DNA from: Candidatus Babelota bacterium
GTDB lineage: Bacteria > Babelota > Babeliae > Babelales > Vermiphilaceae
DNA: 32,000 nucleotides
Assembly (NCBI GenBank): GCA_039809905.1
Contig: JBDHVY010000001.1
Coordinates: 1,110,001 to 1,142,000, forward strand
Direction of reading: 5' to 3'
Below are positions 12,062 through 21,714 of this stretch, in pieces. A model generated the notes under the pieces. That model was not told the origin of the DNA and did not search any database. It saw nothing but the letters and a program-made list of their open reading frames with translations. The stretch's first letter is position 1. Each line of letters begins with the position of its first letter. Made by a program: the position numbers and the translations under genes.

Positions 12062-12319
12062 ATGCCAGTACCGAAACGGAAACGCTCCAGAGCTCGTCGT
12101 GATTCTCGCTTTGCAAATAAGGGTATTAAAGTAAAAGCAATCTCTGGTTGCCTTAATTGCAAAGATCCAATTACTCCTCATACAGCTTGTAAAAACTGTG
12201 GTTTTTACAAAGGTGTTAAAGTGTTAGTAACAAAAGCTGAGAGAAAAGTTAAGCGTCTTGCAGTAAAGGCTCTCAAAAAGCCAGCAAAGCAAGCATCTGC
12301 TGCGTCACAATCTGAGTAA
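12062..12319 (+). CDS. rpmF: 50S ribosomal protein L32
   Basis: MPVPKRKRSRARRDSR N-terminus and CxxC...CxxC zinc ribbon (CLNCKD...CKNCG). Has a Lys/Ala-rich C-terminal extension. Confidence 0.92.
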   Translation: MPVPKRKRSRARRDSRFANKGIKVKAISGCLNCKDPITPHTACKNCGFYKGVKVLVTKAERKVKRLAVKALKKPAKQASAASQSE

Positions 12320-12351
12320 TTATAATAATTTTTCCTAAAGAGGGATTTTCT

Positions 12352-13410
12352 ATGGCGATTGCCGTTGATGTTATGGGGGGCGATTATGCTCCGCAAGAAG
12401 CTGTTCAAGGCGCATTGGCTGCAGCAAAGAAAGGAATCCCTCTTATTCTTTTTGGTAATCAAGATAAAGTAATGCCATTGTTATCGCATTATTGTCCTCG
12501 TTGGCGCTCTCTTCCTATAGAACTTGTCCATTGCGGTGATGTTATTGGTATGGATGAAGATCCACTCAAAGGCATGCTTCGTAAAAAAGATTCCTCTATC
12601 GTTCGTGCATTGCAAGCAGTTAATGCTGGTAAAGCCCAGGCTTTTGTTTCAGCAGGAAATTCAGGAGCGGTTGTTGCAGCTGCAAGCATCATTATAGGAA
12701 GAGTTCCGGGTGTTTTGCGGCCTGCTATCGGCACTTTTTTACCAACTAATCAAGGATCTCTTTTTTGTCTTGATTTAGGGGCAAACCCTGATTGCAAACC
12801 TGAATATCTGGTGCAATTTGCGCATATGGGTTATGCATATACTCGTCTGGTGAAACATATTGCTCAACCACGTGTTGCACTGCTTTCTAATGGGCATGAA
12901 TCATACAAAGGTTCACTGTTAGTTAAAAAAGCTTTTGAGTTGATATCGCAAACTGATATTGAGTTTGTAGGTAATATTGAATCGCGAGATATTTTTTCTG
13001 GACGTGCCGATGTTATCGTAACTGATGGGTTTACCGGAAATATATTGCTGAAAAATATCCAAGGAACAGCAAAAGCGGTTATGGATTGGATGAAAGATGA
13101 AGCATCCCGTTCATTCTTACTTAAAGCATTGCTTGGTTTGACTTATCCTTTGCTCAGCCGCATAAAAAATAAAATTGATTACGCTCGCACGGGCGGTGCA
13201 TTATTGCTTGGTGTAAAAGCACCCATAATCATTGCGCATGGATCATCAAAAGAACCAGCAATTACTCAAGCAATTTTTTTCGCACAAAAAAACGTAGATG
13301 AAAAAATTATTCCCACTTTTAACGAAACGTTGCAACTGCTTTTGGAAAAAAGTGCTGTTACCGTTAAGGCGGCACGACAATCTTCAGTTGTGCGTCAAGC
13401 GCAATTGTGA
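12352..13410 (+). CDS. plsX: Phosphate acyltransferase PlsX
   Basis: MAIAVDVMGGDYAP N-terminus, SAGNSGA, DLGAN, TDGFTGNILLK, GGALLLGV and IIAHGSS motifs. Classic position directly after rpmF. Confidence 0.92.
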   Translation: MAIAVDVMGGDYAPQEAVQGALAAAKKGIPLILFGNQDKVMPLLSHYCPRWRSLPIELVHCGDVIGMDEDPLKGMLRKKDSSIVRALQAVNAGKAQAFVSAGNSGAVVAAASIIIGRVPGVLRPAIGTFLPTNQGSLFCLDLGANPDCKPEYLVQFAHMGYAYTRLVKHIAQPRVALLSNGHESYKGSLLVKKAFELISQTDIEFVGNIESRDIFSGRADVIVTDGFTGNILLKNIQGTAKAVMDWMKDEASRSFLLKALLGLTYPLLSRIKNKIDYARTGGALLLGVKAPIIIAHGSSKEPAITQAIFFAQKNVDEKIIPTFNETLQLLLEKSAVTVKAARQSSVVRQAQL

Positions 13411-13464
13411 TATTTTTTGTTCATATCGCTGGAAATATAGTTAATAAAAAAAATTTATGGAGTT

Positions 13465-14151
13465 GTGATTATGGCTATGCAAAAAGTAAAAACAAATTCA
13501 ATATTTGGAACTATCTTCAATACGTTAAGAGCGCAAAGTAAACCCTTGAGTATTGTTTTGCTCTGTTTAGCAGGGCTTTTTATTTTGTCATGTGCTTATT
13601 CATTTTGGTCAGCACAAAAAGATCGTGCGGCTCAGTATGATTTTAGCGTGCTTATGACAGAGTATGAAACAATATCTCAAGATAAAAATCCAGCGTGGTC
13701 TACATTATTAGAAAAATTTGAAAAGAATTATCAGAAGCATGCAGGTTCTTCATTATTACCATATTATTTGAATTATAAAGTACGTATTTTACTACACCAA
13801 GATAAAAGAGACGAAGCTCTTGAGGTATTAAATACTATAATTGCAAGTAAGTCAGGATCACCTATGCTTTCTCTTTACCATATTGAACGAGCGTTGATTC
13901 AACTGGATGGTAATGATGATGAACAAAGAAAATTAGGACTTAATGCATTGCAAATTTTAGCGCAAGATAAATCTAATCAATATCGTGATAGTGCTCAATT
14001 TTATTTAGGTCGTTATTATTGGGCGATGAATGATATTGATGGAGCTCGTCAAGTTTGGCAACAGCTTGTCGATGACCAGCGTGATGAAAAAATGTCACCA
14101 TCTCCATGGGTATCTTATGTGCAAGATAAACTTAACATCACGATTGTTTAA
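13465..14151 (+). CDS. Membrane-anchored TPR-like protein, YfgM-like (putative)
   Basis: GTG start (ATG alternatives at 13471 and 13477). Single N-terminal TM (LSIVLLCLAGLFILSCAYSFW) followed by a helical-repeat region ending in FYLGRYYWAMNDIDGARQVWQQL. Architecture resembles YfgM/TPR_21; weak by-eye call. Confidence 0.5.
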   Translation: MIMAMQKVKTNSIFGTIFNTLRAQSKPLSIVLLCLAGLFILSCAYSFWSAQKDRAAQYDFSVLMTEYETISQDKNPAWSTLLEKFEKNYQKHAGSSLLPYYLNYKVRILLHQDKRDEALEVLNTIIASKSGSPMLSLYHIERALIQLDGNDDEQRKLGLNALQILAQDKSNQYRDSAQFYLGRYYWAMNDIDGARQVWQQLVDDQRDEKMSPSPWVSYVQDKLNITIV

Positions 14152-14174
14152 AGTTAGTTAGGGATTTAGCAGTT

Positions 14175-15593
14175 ATGGATAAAAAAGTACGTGTTCGTTT
14201 TGCTCCATCACCAACAGGGCATTTGCATATTGGTGGCTTAAGAACAGCGTTATTTAATTGGCTTTTTGCGCGTCATCATGGTGGCGCGTTTTTACTTCGT
14301 ATAGAAGATACTGACGTTGAGCGATCAACACAGGAATATCGTGATTCAATTTTGCATTCATTTGCATGGACTCAATTGGAACATGATGAAGAAATTGTAA
14401 CCCAAAGTGAGCGTATTGCTGAGCATCAAAAAGTTGCAGAGCAACTCATTAAGCAAGGTAAAGCGTATCGCTGTTTTTGTTCACCAGAAGAAGTTGTAGC
14501 GCGTTATGGTAAAGCAACTGATGGTGATGCATTTGTGATGTATGATGGGTATTGCAGGAATCGAACAACGCAAGAAAGTGATAATTCAAGAGCATGTGTT
14601 GTTCGCTTTAAATTACCCGAAGATCGTCAAGAAGTTGTTTTTAATGATCTGATTAAAGGGCCCATTAGCTTCAATTTAGATCAATTTGATGATTTTATTA
14701 TTCTGCGATCTGGCGGATTTCCTATGTATAACTTTGTTGTGGTTGTTGATGATGCCTTTATGAAGATTACCCATATTATCCGAGGTGAAGAGCATATTGT
14801 TAACACACCAAAACAAATTTTGCTTTACCAAGCATGTGGATATGATGTCCCACAGTTTGCTCATTTGCCACTCATTTTAGGACCAAGTGGCGATAAACTG
14901 AGCAAGCGTGATGGTGCAACATCCGTAATTGAATATCGTAAGTCAGGATATATTCCCCATGCATTACTCAATTATTTGGCTCGGCTTGGTTGGTCGCATG
15001 GAGATCAAGAAATATTTTCGTTATCGGAACTTATTCAGCATTTTTCTTTGGATCACATTGGTACAAAAGGTGCCATTTTTGATTTTGAAAAACTTGCATG
15101 GGTAAATAGCGTATATCTGAAAGCAATGACACAAGAAGCGATTCTTGATGCAATTATTGCTGATGTTACTCCGAACTTTTTAACTGATCAGTGTGTTACT
15201 AGAACAGCTGAGGAAGTAAAACAAGTTATCGGGTTATACAAAGAACGAGTAAAAACATTACAGCACATGGTTGAAGAAATTGATCTGGTATTTAATGGCC
15301 CACGTGAACACAATAATGATGATATGCAAAAATGGATTTCAGCTGATTCTCGTCAACATCTGACTGCTATTATAGCAGCTCTGGAAACACAAAATGTTTT
15401 TACGCATGATAATTGTGCAGAAATTGCAAAAGAGCTTGCAACGCAGCTTGGTATTAAGTTAGTAACATTATTACAACCTATTCGTCTTGCCTTGCTTGGT
15501 AAAGCATCCGGTCCGGGAGTATTTGATTTACTTGCGGTAATTGGAAAAGAAGAAAGTATTGAGCGGCTTAGGATGTTTTGCGAGCTGCTTTAA
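14175..15593 (+). CDS. gltX: Glutamyl-tRNA synthetase
   Basis: RFAPSPTGHLHIGGLRTALFNW (HIGH motif), LLRIEDTD, CFC...C Zn-like cluster, HIIRGEEH, KLSKRDG (KMSKS motif), C-terminal anticodon-binding helices. Confidence 0.94.
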   Translation: MDKKVRVRFAPSPTGHLHIGGLRTALFNWLFARHHGGAFLLRIEDTDVERSTQEYRDSILHSFAWTQLEHDEEIVTQSERIAEHQKVAEQLIKQGKAYRCFCSPEEVVARYGKATDGDAFVMYDGYCRNRTTQESDNSRACVVRFKLPEDRQEVVFNDLIKGPISFNLDQFDDFIILRSGGFPMYNFVVVVDDAFMKITHIIRGEEHIVNTPKQILLYQACGYDVPQFAHLPLILGPSGDKLSKRDGATSVIEYRKSGYIPHALLNYLARLGWSHGDQEIFSLSELIQHFSLDHIGTKGAIFDFEKLAWVNSVYLKAMTQEAILDAIIADVTPNFLTDQCVTRTAEEVKQVIGLYKERVKTLQHMVEEIDLVFNGPREHNNDDMQKWISADSRQHLTAIIAALETQNVFTHDNCAEIAKELATQLGIKLVTLLQPIRLALLGKASGPGVFDLLAVIGKEESIERLRMFCELL

Positions 15594-15756: not shown

Positions 15757-16101
15757 ATGCAAAATCATTTTTACGTATATATTTTAAAATGTAAGAATGG
15801 AGCTTATTATGTCGGTCATACAGATAATATAGATCAGCGAATGTCACAGCATCATTTGGGCCTGATTGACAATTGTTATACGAAAAAAATGAGGCCTGTA
15901 GAGTTGTTATTTCTACAGGTCTTTTCTACTCGAGATGATGCTTTTCATGCTGAACGTCAAATTAAAGGTTGGTCGCGTAAAAAAAAAGAAGCTTTAATGC
16001 GAGAAGATTGGCAAGAGATAAAGGAGTTAAATGCATTGCAAAAGACGAAGAGCGCTTTAATCCTTCAACAAGTTCAGGATGAGCGCGGCGAAGACTCATA
16101 A
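15757..16101 (+). CDS. GIY-YIG nuclease family protein (small stand-alone UPF0213/YhbQ-like type)
   Basis: FYVYILKCKNGAYYVGHTDNIDQRMSQH (GIY...YVG), then ERQIKGWSRKKKEALM, typical of the short GIY-YIG family. The last approx. 15 codons are encoded by the right inverted-repeat arm. Confidence 0.85.
   Translation: MQNHFYVYILKCKNGAYYVGHTDNIDQRMSQHHLGLIDNCYTKKMRPVELLFLQVFSTRDDAFHAERQIKGWSRKKKEALMREDWQEIKELNALQKTKSALILQQVQDERGEDS
16057..16087. repeat. Right arm of perfect 31-bp inverted repeat (inside the 3' end of the GIY-YIG ORF)
   Basis: ttaatccttcaacaagttcaggatgagcgcg is the exact reverse complement of 15701-15731. Confidence 0.9.
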
Positions 16102-16143: not shown

Positions 16144-17067
16144 ATGAAAATAGCATTATTATTTCCTGGATATGGTAATCAATTTGTTGGTATGGGCAAA
16201 GAATTGTATGACGAATATCGCGTTGTGCAAGAATATTTTGAAGAAGCTTCTAATTGTTTGGATATTAATTTTGTAAAGTTATGTTTTGCCTCGTCTGATA
16301 TTGAATTAGGAAAAATTAATAATGCATATACATCTTTGTTTTTAGTTGGTTCTTCAGTATACGCGGTTTTAAAAGAACATGGCATAGAGCCAGATGTTGT
16401 TATGGGCTATAACAATGGAGAAAGTGCGGCATTATTTGCTGCAGGGTGTTTTAGCTTACCTGATGGCCTCTATTTATTAAATAAATTTTCTTCATTTTAT
16501 CAGGAATTTATTGATGAAAATGAAGTTGATGCAATGCAAGTAATTGACTTTTCATCAAGAGATCTTGAAGTTCTTTGTGAAAAAATAAGCACTGATGAGT
16601 ATCCTATTTCGATTGCCATTTATAATAGTCAGACAGATCATATTGTTACAGGAAATCGTATTGGTCTTGGACAATTGCAAGATGCTATTGATGGCAAAGG
16701 AAAAATTGAATTTGTTGGTCCAGAAGTAGGATTACATTCATTATTGATGAATACGATAGTAGATGTATTGAAAAGCTATCTTGAAAAAGTAGATTTTAAA
16801 GATCTTAAAATTCCACTAATTAGTTGTATTGATGGAACTATAGTAACTGAAGGATCTGATACTAAAGATCGTTTTATCCGTCATATTAATTCGCCAATTC
16901 AATTTACCAAAGCAATGGAAAAATTAGTTGATTATGATTGTATTCTTATAACAACTCCTGGTGATGCATTAGCTCAAATGGTGCAGCAACATTATCCTGA
17001 AAAAATGGTTATCTCAATTGCAAAAAAAACAGATGTTGATACATTAAAAGAGACCTTAGGTAAATAG
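16144..17067 (+). CDS. fabD: FabD-family (malonyl-CoA:ACP transacylase fold) protein with substituted catalytic residues
   Basis: Collinear by eye with E. coli FabD: LLFPGYGNQFVGMG (FPGQGSQ), VVMGYNNGESAALFAAG (GHSLGEYSAL), VGLHSLLM (PSHCALM), NSPIQFTKAM (NPVQWTKS). Position next to acpP supports the family. Active-site changes are described in findings. Confidence 0.8.
   Translation: MKIALLFPGYGNQFVGMGKELYDEYRVVQEYFEEASNCLDINFVKLCFASSDIELGKINNAYTSLFLVGSSVYAVLKEHGIEPDVVMGYNNGESAALFAAGCFSLPDGLYLLNKFSSFYQEFIDENEVDAMQVIDFSSRDLEVLCEKISTDEYPISIAIYNSQTDHIVTGNRIGLGQLQDAIDGKGKIEFVGPEVGLHSLLMNTIVDVLKSYLEKVDFKDLKIPLISCIDGTIVTEGSDTKDRFIRHINSPIQFTKAMEKLVDYDCILITTPGDALAQMVQQHYPEKMVISIAKKTDVDTLKETLGK
17031..17067 (+). 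repeat. Copy A of duplicated fabD-like 3' end (the functional end)
   Basis: agatgttgatacattaaaagaga (23 nt, identical to 17118-17140) continues as ccttaggtaaatag. Encodes DVDTLKETLGK*. Confidence 0.9.
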
Positions 17068-17227: not shown

Positions 17228-17476
17228 ATGGCAATTGAAATCAATGAAACGGCCAGTAAAATAACTTCTATTATCGCTGAAAAATTACATATTGATGCGG
17301 ATACAGTAAATCCCCAATCAACACTACAAGATCTTGGTGCAGATTCACTTGATATGGTTGATATTATTATGAAAATAGAAGAAGAATTTGGTATTGAAAT
17401 TAATGATGAAGATGCTGAAGGCCTTCATAATGTGCAAGATGTTATCAATTATGTACATGCATTGCGGGTGAAATAA
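17228..17476 (+). CDS. acpP: Acyl carrier protein
   Basis: 82 aa, acidic, with LGADSLDMVDIIMKIEEEFGIEI carrying the DSL phosphopantetheine-attachment serine. SD gagg lies 8 nt upstream. Confidence 0.92.
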   Translation: MAIEINETASKITSIIAEKLHIDADTVNPQSTLQDLGADSLDMVDIIMKIEEEFGIEINDEDAEGLHNVQDVINYVHALRVK

Positions 17477-20023: not shown

Positions 20024-21577
20024 TTAAAATGATAGTCCACCTTTTAACCAGACACTTGCTTGTCCCATAGTGGTATTTGTTGGCTGGTAGGCGTTTCTTG
20101 TATTAATACCTTCAAATTCAATTTCAGCACCAATTCCTAAATATGGCACTCGTTGACCTTCCCTGAGATGTGTCCATGCATGAGAAAGATGCCAAAATAA
20201 TTTTTGTGTTAAAATAAGCGGCGATGCAGCAGATTTTACGTTAAGATCTTGCGTCGTGATAAATACAGGAAATAAACCATCAGATACAATAGGGCCTGTT
20301 TCATAAATTGTAGCAAGGCTTTCTGTAGTATTATTAGGTTGTCCGGTGATTGGATTTGCTGCAAATTGTACGCCTTTTAAGCCATATTTATTTGCGGGAA
20401 TTGTTTCACGTAAACATATTTTTTCTCTACTTCTAATCCATCCATTATAACCAATATCAAAAACAAAATCGTTATAGGTATACGCAAACATGAAAATCAT
20501 ATCAACAACAATGCTACAATGAACATTGCATTTTAAGGTAGTGAAATTGATTGCGGGAACAATTCGTTCTGCAAAAATACCATCTTCATCAAATTCTTTT
20601 GCTAAAATATATCGACTAAAAAAACCATTTTTACAGAAATCAAATGAGCGTCTTTGGCGTGCTTTTAACATGGTGGTAAAGTTTGCATCAACCCAAAGCG
20701 CAAGTTCTTGTTCTCCATCTTTTTCCCATAATCGTGTGTGACCAGTAAAACCAAACCCAAGACGCCAATTTTTCCCACAACCGATGATTGGTTCAAAGAA
20801 AAATTCTCCTTTTGGTCTTGATCCTGTAGGTGCAGATGCACGGAAATTAAGACCAAGATGTGATGTTTCTCTTCTGATAAAATCGTAACCAAAAACTATT
20901 TCAAATGCGGCAAATCCACTAAGTGTTTGATCACCACAAATTTTTCCGAATTTTAATTTTTCAACTTCACCAAAAGAAGAAGTTCCTCTCATCGCTTGTA
21001 TAAATGAATCATAGGGTGGAGTAACTTCAGTTGCGGCCATATAGCCAACGGGATATGGAGTATTTTCGCCTTCTTCAAGAATGCTTTCACTTAATTTAAG
21101 ATTCCATTGCGTCCATACTGCTGGTCCACGTAATTGTAAATATAATCCTTGTACCCATGAATCAAACCCAATATATAATGCCATATCCATAATTAAGTTG
21201 CGAATGAGAGGTTTAAAAAATGTGTCATTTGCAAATGCAGGAGAAAGGCCAAAATAATCGGCGAGCAATTCGTTTGTACCTTCACGGCCAGGAAGCTGAC
21301 TGCCAGAAAGAGAAAATGTATCAGAATTAAAAAGGGCAAGTGAAATATTTTTTGGTCTAAGAGATTGATTATACTCAGGAGTAAAAGCAACAACACCATA
21401 ATTTTTTTTTGCATCATAACGGTGAATTAATGGATGCCAGCCAACAATATCGCGCGCAGCATTCATATCTTGTGAGCGAGGACTAAAAAATGAAATTCCG
21501 CGCAGTTGTTCTGATGAATAGAGAAATGATGTTAATGATGTGATAAGCAGAAAAATTATTTTATTTTTTTTAATCAT
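20024..21577 (-). CDS. Large outer-membrane beta-barrel protein (major-OMP/porin-like), paralog 1
   Basis: Track ORF trimmed to the Met at 21577 (MIKKNKIIFLLITSLTSFLYSSEQ is a signal peptide). Alternating amphipathic strands; C-terminus ASVWLKGGLSF ends in Phe. Shares ADYFGL, FEPI(I/V)G...W.LGFG, RRSFD and SRY(I/M)LA motifs with the ORFs at 27761-31413. Resemblance to Legionella/Coxiella-type major OMPs is from memory only. Confidence 0.75.
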   Translation of the reverse strand: MIKKNKIIFLLITSLTSFLYSSEQLRGISFFSPRSQDMNAARDIVGWHPLIHRYDAKKNYGVVAFTPEYNQSLRPKNISLALFNSDTFSLSGSQLPGREGTNELLADYFGLSPAFANDTFFKPLIRNLIMDMALYIGFDSWVQGLYLQLRGPAVWTQWNLKLSESILEEGENTPYPVGYMAATEVTPPYDSFIQAMRGTSSFGEVEKLKFGKICGDQTLSGFAAFEIVFGYDFIRRETSHLGLNFRASAPTGSRPKGEFFFEPIIGCGKNWRLGFGFTGHTRLWEKDGEQELALWVDANFTTMLKARQRRSFDFCKNGFFSRYILAKEFDEDGIFAERIVPAINFTTLKCNVHCSIVVDMIFMFAYTYNDFVFDIGYNGWIRSREKICLRETIPANKYGLKGVQFAANPITGQPNNTTESLATIYETGPIVSDGLFPVFITTQDLNVKSAASPLILTQKLFWHLSHAWTHLREGQRVPYLGIGAEIEFEGINTRNAYQPTNTTMGQASVWLKGGLSF

Positions 21578-21606
21578 TGCGTGCCCTTGTGGTAGGAACT
21601 TTTTAA

Positions 21607-21641
21607 CCCCATGTGAAACAGAGTGGAACATGGGGACCCCG
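21607..21641. repeat. GC-rich hairpin element, copy 2
   Basis: CCCCATGTgaaacagagtggaACATGGGGaccccg: perfect 8-bp stem and 13-nt loop, 11 of 13 loop nt identical to copy 1. Lies about 30 nt upstream of the OMP start codon, on the opposite strand relative to that gene. Confidence 0.8.
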
Positions 21642-21714
21642 TTCAAGAGATCTCTCTTATTGTTACTGTAGAACGTATGAGGCATTGATTACAAGGGATT
21701 TATATAAGCATACT

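What the first reader, a model, noticed from the sequence alone, without database searches (positions are those of the whole stretch)
16144..17067. FabD-fold protein with nucleophile, oxyanion and malonyl-binding residues replaced
A by-eye alignment to E. coli FabD is collinear, but the key residues differ. GHSLG becomes GYNNG: the Ser92 equivalent is Asn90 (codon 16411-16413) and the His91 equivalent is Tyr. The Gln11 equivalent in FPGQGSQ is Tyr10 (16171-16173). The Arg117 region (EMRGKFM) reads NKFSSFY, with no Arg. The His201 and Gln250 equivalents are retained (GLHS, PIQF). Loss of the acyl-accepting Ser and of the Arg that binds the malonyl carboxylate argues against normal malonyl-CoA:ACP transacylase activity. 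Yet the ORF is intact and sits next to acpP, so it may be a pseudoenzyme or a repurposed ACP-binding acyltransferase.
Basis: partly seen in the sequence, partly recalled or inferred. Interest (0 to 1): 0.6.

Follow-up and report, generated by a model that had tools for sequence, protein, structure and literature searches.

The report
Catalytically dead FabD kept by parasites
This gene is a fatty-acid-synthesis enzyme (FabD) that has lost its catalytic and substrate-binding residues, yet most Dependentiae parasites that discarded fatty acid synthesis keep it under selection, so it probably has a second, unknown job.

Summary
ORF 16144-17067 is an intact FabD-fold protein (AF2 pLDDT 92, TM 0.91 to E. 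coli FabD). Ser92 is Asn, His91 is Tyr, Gln11 is Tyr and Arg117 is Phe. One assignment was wrong: the Gln250 equivalent is His247, not the Gln of PIQF.

The genome (Babeliales, Dependentiae/TM6; 1.23 Mb) has no fabH/F/Z/I, no acc and no lpx genes. It keeps acpP, acpS, an Aas-like ligase and plsX/Y/C.

Across 261 Dependentiae genomes, all 15 FabF-positive genomes examined carry a canonical FabD in rpmF-plsX-TPR-gltX-fabD-fabG-acpP-fabF. FASII-less lineages carry a Ser-less version at the same position. The Ser-less proteins form one clade.

In that clade the malonyl pocket is rebuilt with conserved aromatic residues. The nucleophile position drifts between Gly, Asn and Asp. The phosphopantetheine tunnel and the basic ACP/CoA docking patch are no longer conserved. 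Residues 1-57 stay almost invariant.

dN/dS is 0.05-0.22. The gene survives in lineages that lack ACP, AcpS, PlsX, PlsY, PlsC and Aas, and it is cleanly deleted in some lineages that keep ACP.

Verdict: a conserved FabD-derived pseudoenzyme whose function does not depend on ACP. It is not a malonyl or ACP transacylase. Its actual role is unknown.

The parts
16144..17067 (+). FabD-derived pseudoenzyme gene (307 aa, P0001), the positional orthologue of canonical fabD
16144..16314 (+). Residues 1-57 (strand 1, the FPGYGNQ loop and helices 1-3). This is the most conserved part of the Ser-less clade at about 1.0 bit entropy. K19, R26, Q29, A35 and F48 are 100% conserved, and N42 and S51 99%. All are shared with canonical Dependentiae FabD but not with E. 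coli FabD.
16171..16173 (+). Tyr10 codon, in place of Gln11. Tyr occurs in 93% of Ser-less representatives and Gln in 13 of 13 canonical Dependentiae FabDs.
16327..16329 (+). Tyr62 codon, in place of Gln63. Tyr occurs in 84% of Ser-less representatives.
16408..16413 (+). Tyr89-Asn90 codons, in place of the His91-Ser92 nucleophile elbow. Asn is invariant in the close subfamily. Across the whole clade the position is Gly (47%), Asn or Asp.
16483..16500 (+). Helix segment K114-F115-S-S-F-Y119. Phe115 replaces Arg117 and Tyr119 replaces Met121. Lys114 is ancestral (KKR in canonical Dependentiae FabD).
16519..16728 (+). Ferredoxin-like small subdomain (residues 126-195). It holds the former phosphopantetheine tunnel and part of the ACP/CoA docking surface. 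Constraint is relaxed in the Ser-less clade (2.9 bits).
16735..16737 (+). His198 codon (equivalent of His201). It is retained here and in 119 of 120 close homologues, but only in 69% of clade representatives, with Tyr in 21%.
17228..17476 (+). acpP (82 aa), immediately downstream. The adjacency is ancestral.
12062..15593 (+). rpmF, plsX, the YfgM-like TPR gene and gltX. This is the conserved upstream part of the ancestral Dependentiae locus.
15757..16101 (+). GIY-YIG gene inserted between gltX and the FabD-like gene. It was found in none of 29 relatives.

Best explanation
The gene descends directly from the fabD of a Dependentiae ancestor that still made fatty acids. When the lineage lost type II fatty acid synthesis, fabG and fabF were deleted from the operon but fabD stayed. 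Its catalytic machinery was then dismantled. The Ser-His dyad, the malonyl-binding Arg and Gln residues, the phosphopantetheine tunnel and the basic ACP/CoA docking patch were replaced or released from constraint. The former malonyl pocket was refilled with bulky aromatic residues (Tyr10, Tyr62, Tyr/Phe89, Phe/Tyr115, Tyr119). The strained nucleophile-elbow position took residues that tolerate that backbone geometry (Gly, Asn, Asp). Selection still preserves the alpha/beta-hydrolase-like large subdomain, above all residues 1-57, helix 105-120 and residues 212-217. These segments were already conserved in the canonical Dependentiae enzyme. I therefore read the protein as a non-catalytic pseudoenzyme that carries on a second, ACP-independent function which Dependentiae FabD had before synthesis was lost, most likely binding of a partner through the large subdomain. 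Shown here: orthology, loss of all transacylase determinants, a pattern consistent with a single origin, purifying selection, and independence from ACP. Inferred: that the pocket is plugged rather than used, that the function is binding rather than a new chemistry, and that it predates the loss of synthesis.
For: (1) There is no fatty acid synthesis in this genome. tblastn with E. coli proteins finds plsX, plsY, plsC, acpP, acpS and an Aas-like ligase, but no fabH, fabF, fabZ, fabI, accABCD or lpxABD. There is a single FabD-family gene, below the cut-off. AcpS is confirmed.
(2) Among 261 Dependentiae genomes, 213 have a FabD-family gene and only 49 have FabF. All 15 FabF-positive genomes inspected, from 5 families, have canonical FPGQG[SA]Q / GHS[LS]GE / KR / FHS in the order rpmF-plsX-TPR-gltX-fabD-fabG-acpP-fabF. 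FASII-less genomes have the Ser-less gene at the same place.
(3) The Ser-less proteins fall on one side of a branch. SH-aLRT is 100, and 94 after removing 12 trait columns.
(4) Residue statistics from 90 diverse Ser-less representatives against 13 canonical sequences: Q11 to Y 93%; Q63 to Y 84%; M121 to Y 81%; R117 to Y/L/F/W; S92 to G/N/D; H201 is H in 69%. Tunnel residues N160, N162 and Q166 and docking residues K190, K283, K286 and R287 are kept in canonical sequences and not in Ser-less ones. Their roles are taken from the FabD-AcpP structure paper.
(5) Constraint is concentrated in residues 1-57, at 1.0 bit against 2.9 bits in the small subdomain.
(6) Purifying selection: dN/dS is 0.11-0.22 within the genus. 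All 29 relatives have intact ORFs, and none of 80 further loci has an early stop.
(7) Independence from ACP: G061, G072 and G055 lack PP-binding, PlsX, AcpS, PlsC, PlsY and AMP-binding hits. They keep the gene with all clade motifs, and dN/dS is 0.05-0.14 in family f5, to which G061 and G072 belong. All 14 genomes of family f5 have the gene, and none has a detectable acpP.
(8) P0001 is very acidic (pI 4.6, net charge -20) and lacks the basic patch. That is a poor match for acidic ACP.
(9) Precedent for a second role of this fold: human MCAT acts as a mitoribosomal small-subunit assembly factor (PMC9892005).
Against: No partner or ligand has been identified, and neighbours in ACP-less genomes gave no clue. 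The gene has been cleanly deleted several times (G188, G186, G244, G009, G010) and may be frameshifted in G193, so its function is dispensable in some backgrounds. In the close subfamily Asn90, His198 and Tyr10 are nearly invariant, which could equally mean a site in use. Conservation of the aromatic pocket residues fits a new ligand site as well as a plug. I had no atomic coordinates, so pocket occlusion was not measured. Conservation of residues 1-57 in the 13 canonical sequences is weak evidence, because those sequences are closely related. No expression data exist.
Confidence: 0.55

Rival explanations
1. The remodelled aromatic pocket is a new ligand-binding or catalytic site. The protein would bind or process a host-derived molecule, for example a lipid tail or a quaternary-amine head group held in a Tyr/Phe cage, without using ACP or CoA.
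For: Five pocket positions changed in one direction, to Tyr or Phe, and are conserved at 81-93% across a clade that is otherwise only 35-60% identical. Asn90, Tyr10 and His198 are nearly invariant in the close subfamily. The organisms must obtain lipids from the host (PMC4776705). From my own knowledge, aromatic cages often bind quaternary amines, and the FabD/patatin superfamily includes phospholipases.
Against: The nucleophile-equivalent position varies among Gly, Asn and Asp, and His201 is Tyr in 21% of representatives, so no fixed catalytic group is evident. By standard residue volumes (my own estimate, not a structural measurement) the substitutions add about 140-190 cubic angstroms, more than the volume of a malonyl group, which suggests filling rather than opening. 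The small subdomain that forms the other wall of the gorge is poorly conserved.
Confidence: 0.25
2. It is still an acyl transferase working with ACP, for example loading host-derived acyl-CoA onto ACP by direct transfer without an acyl-enzyme intermediate.
For: The gene lies directly upstream of acpP in most Ser-less genomes. This genome runs an ACP-dependent salvage route with Aas-like ligase, AcpS, PlsX, PlsY and PlsC. Replacing Arg117 with a hydrophobic residue would suit non-carboxylated acyl groups (my own knowledge of loading acyltransferases). His198 is retained here.
Against: Phosphopantetheine tunnel residues N160, N162 and Q166 and docking residues K189/R190, K279, K286 and R287 are not conserved. 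P0001 carries a net charge of -20. The gene persists under dN/dS 0.05-0.14 in lineages without ACP, AcpS, PlsX, PlsY, PlsC or Aas. It is absent from lineages that keep ACP. The acpP adjacency is ancestral.
Confidence: 0.07
3. It is a functionless relic of the fab operon that has not yet been deleted.
For: There are repeated clean deletions, a possibly frameshifted copy in G193, and absence from 25 of 189 high-quality genomes. The small subdomain and the C-terminal region evolve fast.
Against: ORFs are intact in 29 of 29 relatives and 80 of 80 further loci. dN/dS is 0.05-0.22. Residues stay invariant across a clade that spans most families of the phylum. Identity tracks only slightly below that of gltX. 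All this holds in small genomes, which from my own knowledge tend to delete unused DNA.
Confidence: 0.05

Closest known systems
FabD, malonyl-CoA:ACP transacylase (E. coli FabD, PDB 1MLA/2G2Z/6U0J; TIGR00128)
   Same: It has the same two-subdomain fold (TM 0.91) and a collinear alignment. It is the direct positional orthologue of canonical Dependentiae fabD.
   Different: Ser92, His91, Gln11, Gln63, Arg117 and Met121 are replaced. The phosphopantetheine tunnel and the ACP/CoA docking patch are not conserved. The score is below the family cut-off. The genome has no fatty acid synthase or acetyl-CoA carboxylase.
Human mitochondrial MCAT as a mitoribosomal small-subunit assembly factor (PDB 8CSP; PMC9892005)
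   Same: It is a FabD-fold protein with a second, non-catalytic role. It also appears among the structural matches.
   Different: MCAT keeps its catalytic residues and its enzymatic role. No ribosome link is shown for the Dependentiae protein, which is strongly acidic. This is an analogy only.
Pseudoenzymes with occluded active sites (for example pseudokinases whose nucleotide pocket is filled by hydrophobic side chains; my own knowledge)
   Same: Catalytic residues are lost, the pocket is refilled by bulky residues, the fold is retained, and the gene is under purifying selection.
   Different: The fold and ancestry are different. Pocket occlusion here is inferred from residue identities and was not measured.
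The orphan 'FabD' noted in Babela massiliensis (Pagnier et al. 2015, PMC4378268)
   Same: It comes from the same phylum, and the same puzzle was stated explicitly: a FabD gene with no fatty acid synthesis pathway and an unclear function.
   Different: In the passages I searched, that paper treats it as an enzyme of an incomplete pathway and does not mention loss of the active site. Whether the Babela protein itself belongs to the Ser-less clade was not checked here.
MdcH (malonate decarboxylase epsilon subunit) and the acyltransferases of polyketide synthases
   Same: They match the same Pfam family, with weaker matches.
   Different: All scores are far below the cut-offs (124 against 297.9 for MdcH). 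No ketosynthase gene exists in the genome. Those enzymes keep the Ser nucleophile.

Membership tests
FabD / ACP S-malonyltransferase (TIGR00128, EC 2.3.1.39) | FabD fold with a large alpha/beta subdomain and a ferredoxin-like small subdomain | tested here: met
   AF2 pLDDT is 92.4. Foldseek TM is 0.91 to 6U0J and 1MLA.
FabD / ACP S-malonyltransferase (TIGR00128, EC 2.3.1.39) | GHSxG nucleophile elbow with Ser92 | tested here: not met
   The motif is GYNNG, and Asn90 aligns with Ser92.
FabD / ACP S-malonyltransferase (TIGR00128, EC 2.3.1.39) | Arg117 binding the malonyl carboxylate, supported by Gln11 and Gln63 | tested here: not met
   The residues are Phe115, Tyr10 and Tyr62.
FabD / ACP S-malonyltransferase (TIGR00128, EC 2.3.1.39) | His201 general base | tested here: met
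   His198 is present. Only 69% of clade representatives keep His.
FabD / ACP S-malonyltransferase (TIGR00128, EC 2.3.1.39) | Phosphopantetheine tunnel (Asn160, Asn162, Gln166) and basic ACP/CoA docking residues (K189/R190, K279, K286/R287) | tested here: not met
   P0001 has I159, N161 and D165 in the tunnel, and G186, K187, D274, Q281 and Q282 at the docking sites. None of these positions is conserved in the clade.
FabD / ACP S-malonyltransferase (TIGR00128, EC 2.3.1.39) | Score above the curated family cut-off | tested here: not met
   The score is 164.3 bits against 260.9.
FabD / ACP S-malonyltransferase (TIGR00128, EC 2.3.1.39) | Pathway context: a malonyl-CoA source (ACC) and users of malonyl-ACP (FabH, FabF) | tested here: not met
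   There is no accABCD, fabH, fabF, fabZ or fabI.
FabD / ACP S-malonyltransferase (TIGR00128, EC 2.3.1.39) | Malonyl transfer activity | not testable with these tools
   This needs a biochemical assay.
Pfam Acyl_transf_1 (PF00698) superfamily | Score above the gathering threshold | tested here: met
   The score is 69.1 bits against 32.7.
Pseudoenzyme (a homologue of an enzyme that lacks catalytic residues but is kept by selection) | Clear descent from an active enzyme family | tested here: met
   It is the positional orthologue of canonical Dependentiae fabD and nests with those sequences in the tree.
Pseudoenzyme (a homologue of an enzyme that lacks catalytic residues but is kept by selection) | Key catalytic and substrate-binding residues missing | tested here: met
   
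Pseudoenzyme (a homologue of an enzyme that lacks catalytic residues but is kept by selection) | Maintained by purifying selection | tested here: met
   dN/dS is 0.05-0.22. ORFs are intact in more than 100 loci.
Pseudoenzyme (a homologue of an enzyme that lacks catalytic residues but is kept by selection) | Demonstrated absence of the ancestral activity | not testable with these tools
   This needs an assay of recombinant protein.
MdcH / PKS-type acyltransferases | Score above the family cut-off, with partner genes (a ketosynthase for PKS; mdc genes for MdcH) | tested here: not met
   TIGR03131 scores 124 against 297.9, and PKS models are far below their cut-offs. No ketosynthase exists in the genome. 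The mdc genes were not searched.

The most novel reading that the evidence does not exclude
Dependentiae FabD has a second function that is under strong selection and unrelated to lipid synthesis, carried by its N-terminal large-subdomain surface. The Ser-less clade would be that moonlighting function in pure form. The human MCAT precedent and co-transcription with gltX next to rpmF suggest a role in assembling a large cellular machine such as the ribosome. If so, the family would be a natural separation-of-function mutant for a moonlighting role of FabD that may also exist, hidden, in other bacteria.
Probability: 0.15. Interest if true: 0.85.

Novelty: new variant of a known kind. Interest (0 to 1): 0.62.

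Why it matters
FabD is treated as a single-purpose housekeeping enzyme, and automated pipelines annotate these proteins as 'ACP S-malonyltransferase'. That makes metabolic reconstructions of Dependentiae suggest a fragment of fatty acid synthesis that is not there. The orphan FabD of Babela was flagged as unexplained in 2015 (PMC4378268). This work shows that the protein is catalytically dismantled, arose in a pattern consistent with a single origin when synthesis was lost, is kept by selection, and in some lineages outlives every other acyl-lipid gene tested, including ACP. That points to an unrecognised non-enzymatic function of the FabD fold. It also turns the 2015 question into a testable one, because a natural series exists within one phylum: canonical, Ser-less with ACP, Ser-less without ACP, and deleted. 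In practice, the signature FPG-Y-G-x-Q together with a non-Ser elbow lets annotators separate the two forms.

Tried and rejected
I took context from the genome search, the fetch from genomes and the search for related loci instead.
- Expression: no RNA holder was listed for this DNA, and read laying was not used. This is not evidence either way.
- Literature searches for a described Ser-less or inactive stand-alone FabD found nothing relevant. Only the Babela remark and the MCAT precedent bear on it.
- Neighbours of the gene in ACP-less genomes (an outer-membrane-protein-like gene, BacA, glutamine synthetase, an ankyrin protein) suggested no partner.
- General RNA binding through a basic surface is rejected. 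The clade is acidic, with median net charge -9.5, and P0001 is at -20.
- The 'stops inside' flags for G249 and G256 are only matches that run past the stop codon; both ORFs are intact. The same applies to the 'TGA inside' flag for this genome's plsY.
- The three-frame copy in G193 could be a real pseudogene or indel errors in a three-contig, 85%-complete assembly. I left this undecided.
- I considered a full proteome comparison of the congeners G185 (gene present) and G188 (gene absent) to find co-lost genes. I did not run it because it would have used nearly all remaining fetch calls.
Full report
**What is in the window.** ORF 16144-17067 (+) is open and encodes a 307-aa protein, P0001.
- It matches Pfam Acyl_transf_1 at 69 bits. 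It matches the FabD equivalog TIGR00128 at only 164 bits, against a 260.9-bit cut-off.
- HMMER alignments to solved FabDs are collinear (E 3e-27 to 1e-23) and give these pairs: FPGQGAQ/FPGYGNQ, GHSLGE/GYNNGE and RKRGQLM/NKFSSFY.
- So Gln11 is Tyr10, His91 is Tyr89, Ser92 is Asn90 and Arg117 is Phe115. His201 is kept as His198.
- An AF2 model built on 51 homologues is confident (pLDDT 92.4). Its best structural matches are E. coli FabD and the FabD-AcpP complex at TM 0.91.
E. coli Gln250 aligns with His247, not with the Gln of PIQF, which corresponds to Gln256. The oxyanion hole is made of backbone amides, so the Gln-to-Tyr change does not abolish it by itself.

**Genome context.** The window lies in a complete 1.23-Mb genome. 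The closest homologues of P0001 are annotated as Babeliales, Dependentiae or TM6.
- tblastn with E. coli lipid proteins finds plsX, plsY, plsC, acpP, acpS and an Aas-like AMP-binding ligase.
- It finds no fabH, fabF, fabZ, fabI, accA-D or lpxA/B/D. AcpS and an intact PlsY were confirmed.
- The organism thus has a route from exogenous fatty acid to phospholipid, but no way to make or use malonyl-ACP.
- Published analyses agree that TM6 lacks fatty acid synthesis (PMC4776705). Pagnier et al. listed the orphan FabD of Babela as a gene of unclear function (PMC4378268).

**The substitutions are a family trait.**
- In 120 homologues at 53-87% identity, Asn90 is invariant. Position 10 is Tyr or Phe in 119 of 120, Lys114 is invariant, position 115 is never Arg, and His198 is present in 119 of 120.
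- An exhaustive profile-free search found about 90 stand-alone representatives down to 35% identity. All but one share FPG-Y-GSQ, K-[YFL]-x3-[FL]-Y and G-L-H-S.
- In these representatives the Ser92 position is Gly (47%), Asn or Asp, and occasionally another residue.
- A scan of 185,579 species genomes with two signature peptides returned only Dependentiae-type records. Some carry a 'Pseudomonadota' label in the record title. None has an early stop.

**Origin.** Of 261 Dependentiae genomes, 213 have a FabD-family gene (164 of 189 high-quality genomes; 20 of 21 families). Only 49 have FabF, and these are confined to five families apart from one likely stray.
- In all 15 FabF-positive genomes inspected, the locus is rpmF-plsX-TPR-gltX-fabD-fabG-acpP-fabF.
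- The FabD there is fully canonical: FPGQG[SA]Q, GHS[LS]GE, KR and FHS.
- In FASII-less families the same locus reads rpmF-(plsX)-TPR-gltX-FabD-like-acpP.
- The Ser-less gene is therefore the positional orthologue of fabD, left behind when fabG and fabF were deleted.
- In a maximum-likelihood tree of 105 sequences rooted on E. coli FabD, the 91 Ser-less proteins lie on one side of a branch. SH-aLRT is 100, and 94 after removing 12 trait columns.
- This is consistent with one origin. The caveats are a single distant outgroup and canonical sequences drawn from few families.

**What was lost and what was kept.** I used the residue roles defined by the FabD-AcpP crystal structure (bioRxiv 10.1101/2020.05.15.098798) and compared 13 canonical Dependentiae FabDs with 90 Ser-less representatives.
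- *Malonyl pocket.* It is rebuilt in one direction and then conserved. Q11 is Y in 93%, Q63 is Y in 84%, M121 is Y in 81% (plus F), R117 is Y/L/F/W, and H91 is Y/F/H.
- *Dyad.* S92 is G/N/D. H201 is His in only 69% and Tyr in 21%. So no catalytic dyad is maintained across the clade.
- *Phosphopantetheine tunnel.* N160, N162, Q166, L194 and V196 are 100% conserved in canonical sequences. In Ser-less sequences the commonest residue reaches only 19-29%.
- *ACP/CoA docking residues.* K190, K283, K286 and R287 show the same loss. P0001 has Gln281 and Gln282 in place of Lys286 and Arg287, and carries a net charge of -20.
- *Where constraint remains.* Column entropy is 1.0 bit for residues 1-57, about 1.1-1.9 for 101-120 and 1.5 for 211-220. 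It is 2.9 for the small subdomain and 2.7 for the C-terminal part.
- *Shared conserved residues.* K19, Y22, D23, R26, Q29, E30, E33, A35, N42, F48, S51, D107, Y110, K114, Y212, K215 and D217 are shared with canonical Dependentiae FabD but not with E. coli FabD.
- *Inference from general structural knowledge.* Gly, Asn and Asp are the residues that best tolerate the strained backbone of a nucleophile elbow. By standard residue volumes the aromatic substitutions add roughly 140-190 cubic angstroms, more than a malonyl group occupies. Both points suit a fold that is preserved while its pocket is filled. I could not measure this, because model coordinates are not exposed.

**Selection.** All 29 relatives fetched have intact ORFs of 304-329 aa. 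Their identity to the window tracks just below that of gltX. Nei-Gojobori dN/dS within the genus is 0.11-0.22 at dS 0.5-1.6.

**Independence from ACP.**
- acpP is found in 226 of 261 genomes, but the two genes are uncoupled. Family f5 has the FabD-like gene in 14 of 14 genomes and acpP in 0 of 14. Genus g3 has it in 1 of 8 and acpP in 7 of 8. Family f2 shows 24 against 39 of 41, and f15 shows 1 against 4 of 6.
- In G188, G186, G244, G009 and G010 the gene is cleanly excised, so gltX abuts acpP.
- In G061, G072 and G055 (95-97% complete) no PP-binding domain, PlsX, AcpS, PlsC, PlsY or AMP-binding ligase is detectable.
- Those three genomes still carry an intact FabD-like gene with every clade motif.
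- Within family f5 the gene evolves at dN/dS 0.05 (dS 0.49), 0.10 and 0.14.
- In these lineages it is the last survivor among the acyl-lipid genes tested. Whatever it does cannot require ACP.

**Interpretation.**
- The alternative of an ACP-binding acyltransferase is disfavoured. Adjacency to acpP is inherited synteny.
- My best reading (about 0.55) is a non-catalytic protein whose selected function sits on the large subdomain and probably predates the loss of synthesis. In other words, Dependentiae FabD was already moonlighting.
- Human MCAT, which doubles as a mitoribosomal small-subunit assembly factor (PMC9892005), shows that this fold can take on such a role. It is an analogy only, and the acidic surface argues against generic RNA binding.
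- The main rival (about 0.25) is that the aromatic pocket is a new ligand site.
- A direct-transfer ACP acyltransferase (0.07) and a functionless relic (0.05) are unlikely.

**Novelty.** I found no description of a Ser-less stand-alone FabD family. Databases name these proteins ACP S-malonyltransferase. An earlier first-stage note of this scan recorded the same eroded cluster, with a FabD homologue lacking its catalytic serine, in another genome. I class this as a new variant of a known kind: a pseudoenzyme derived from FabD.

Noticed in passing
window 20024-21685 (-); L054:2649-4358; L056:6562-8112: The 553-aa outer-membrane-protein-like gene downstream of the locus has homologues (26-28% identity, E 2e-41 and 8e-26) placed convergently next to the FabD-like gene in distant families f5 and f3. 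The wider locus gltX-FabD-like-(acpP)-OMP is therefore conserved. None of the three proteins has a Pfam match.
   Followed up: partly
window 15757-16101: The GIY-YIG gene between gltX and the FabD-like gene was found in none of the 29 relatives fetched, where gltX is followed directly by the FabD-like gene. The insertion is specific to this genome.
   Followed up: partly
L079 (G193:C3:683580-687053): In one genome of the same family, the FabD-like gene is split over three reading frames by two frameshifts, and acpP matches only in part. This is either a real pseudogene or indel errors in a three-contig assembly that is 85% complete.
   Followed up: partly
L053, L054, L071-L075 (family f5): The FabD-like proteins of the ACP-less family f5 are 350-372 aa long, about 50-60 residues longer than elsewhere, apparently at the C-terminus: the Pfam match ends at about residue 245 of 367.
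   Followed up: no
L041-L052, L076-L078, L160-L161: Forty-nine of 261 Dependentiae genomes, including MAGs labelled TM6 UASB124, carry fabD-fabG-acpP-fabF with a canonical FabD. This qualifies the published statement that TM6 lacks fatty acid synthesis genes (PMC4776705). FabH, FabZ, FabI and ACC were not checked in these genomes.
   Followed up: partly
L055-L057, L060, L062-L065, L067-L069: plsX is missing from the rpmF-TPR interval in many Ser-less genomes. G188 has ACP, AcpS, PlsC and an Aas-like ligase but no detectable PlsX or PlsY, so the lipid salvage routes differ between lineages.
   Followed up: partly
L085, L091, L092, L155 and others: Many public MAG records titled 'uncultured Pseudomonadota bacterium' carry this Dependentiae-specific locus. 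One of them (68,614-bp contig CAYUQI010000005.1) matches a contig of the Dependentiae genome G157 in length and in the coordinates of the hit. Their taxonomic labels look wrong.
   Followed up: no
genome C1:899408-900856 and C1:969074-969457 (outside the window): The genome encodes an Aas-like AMP-binding ligase (274 bits to PF00501) and a PlsC. Together with AcpS, ACP, PlsX and PlsY, these form a complete route from host fatty acids to phosphatidic acid.
   Followed up: partly
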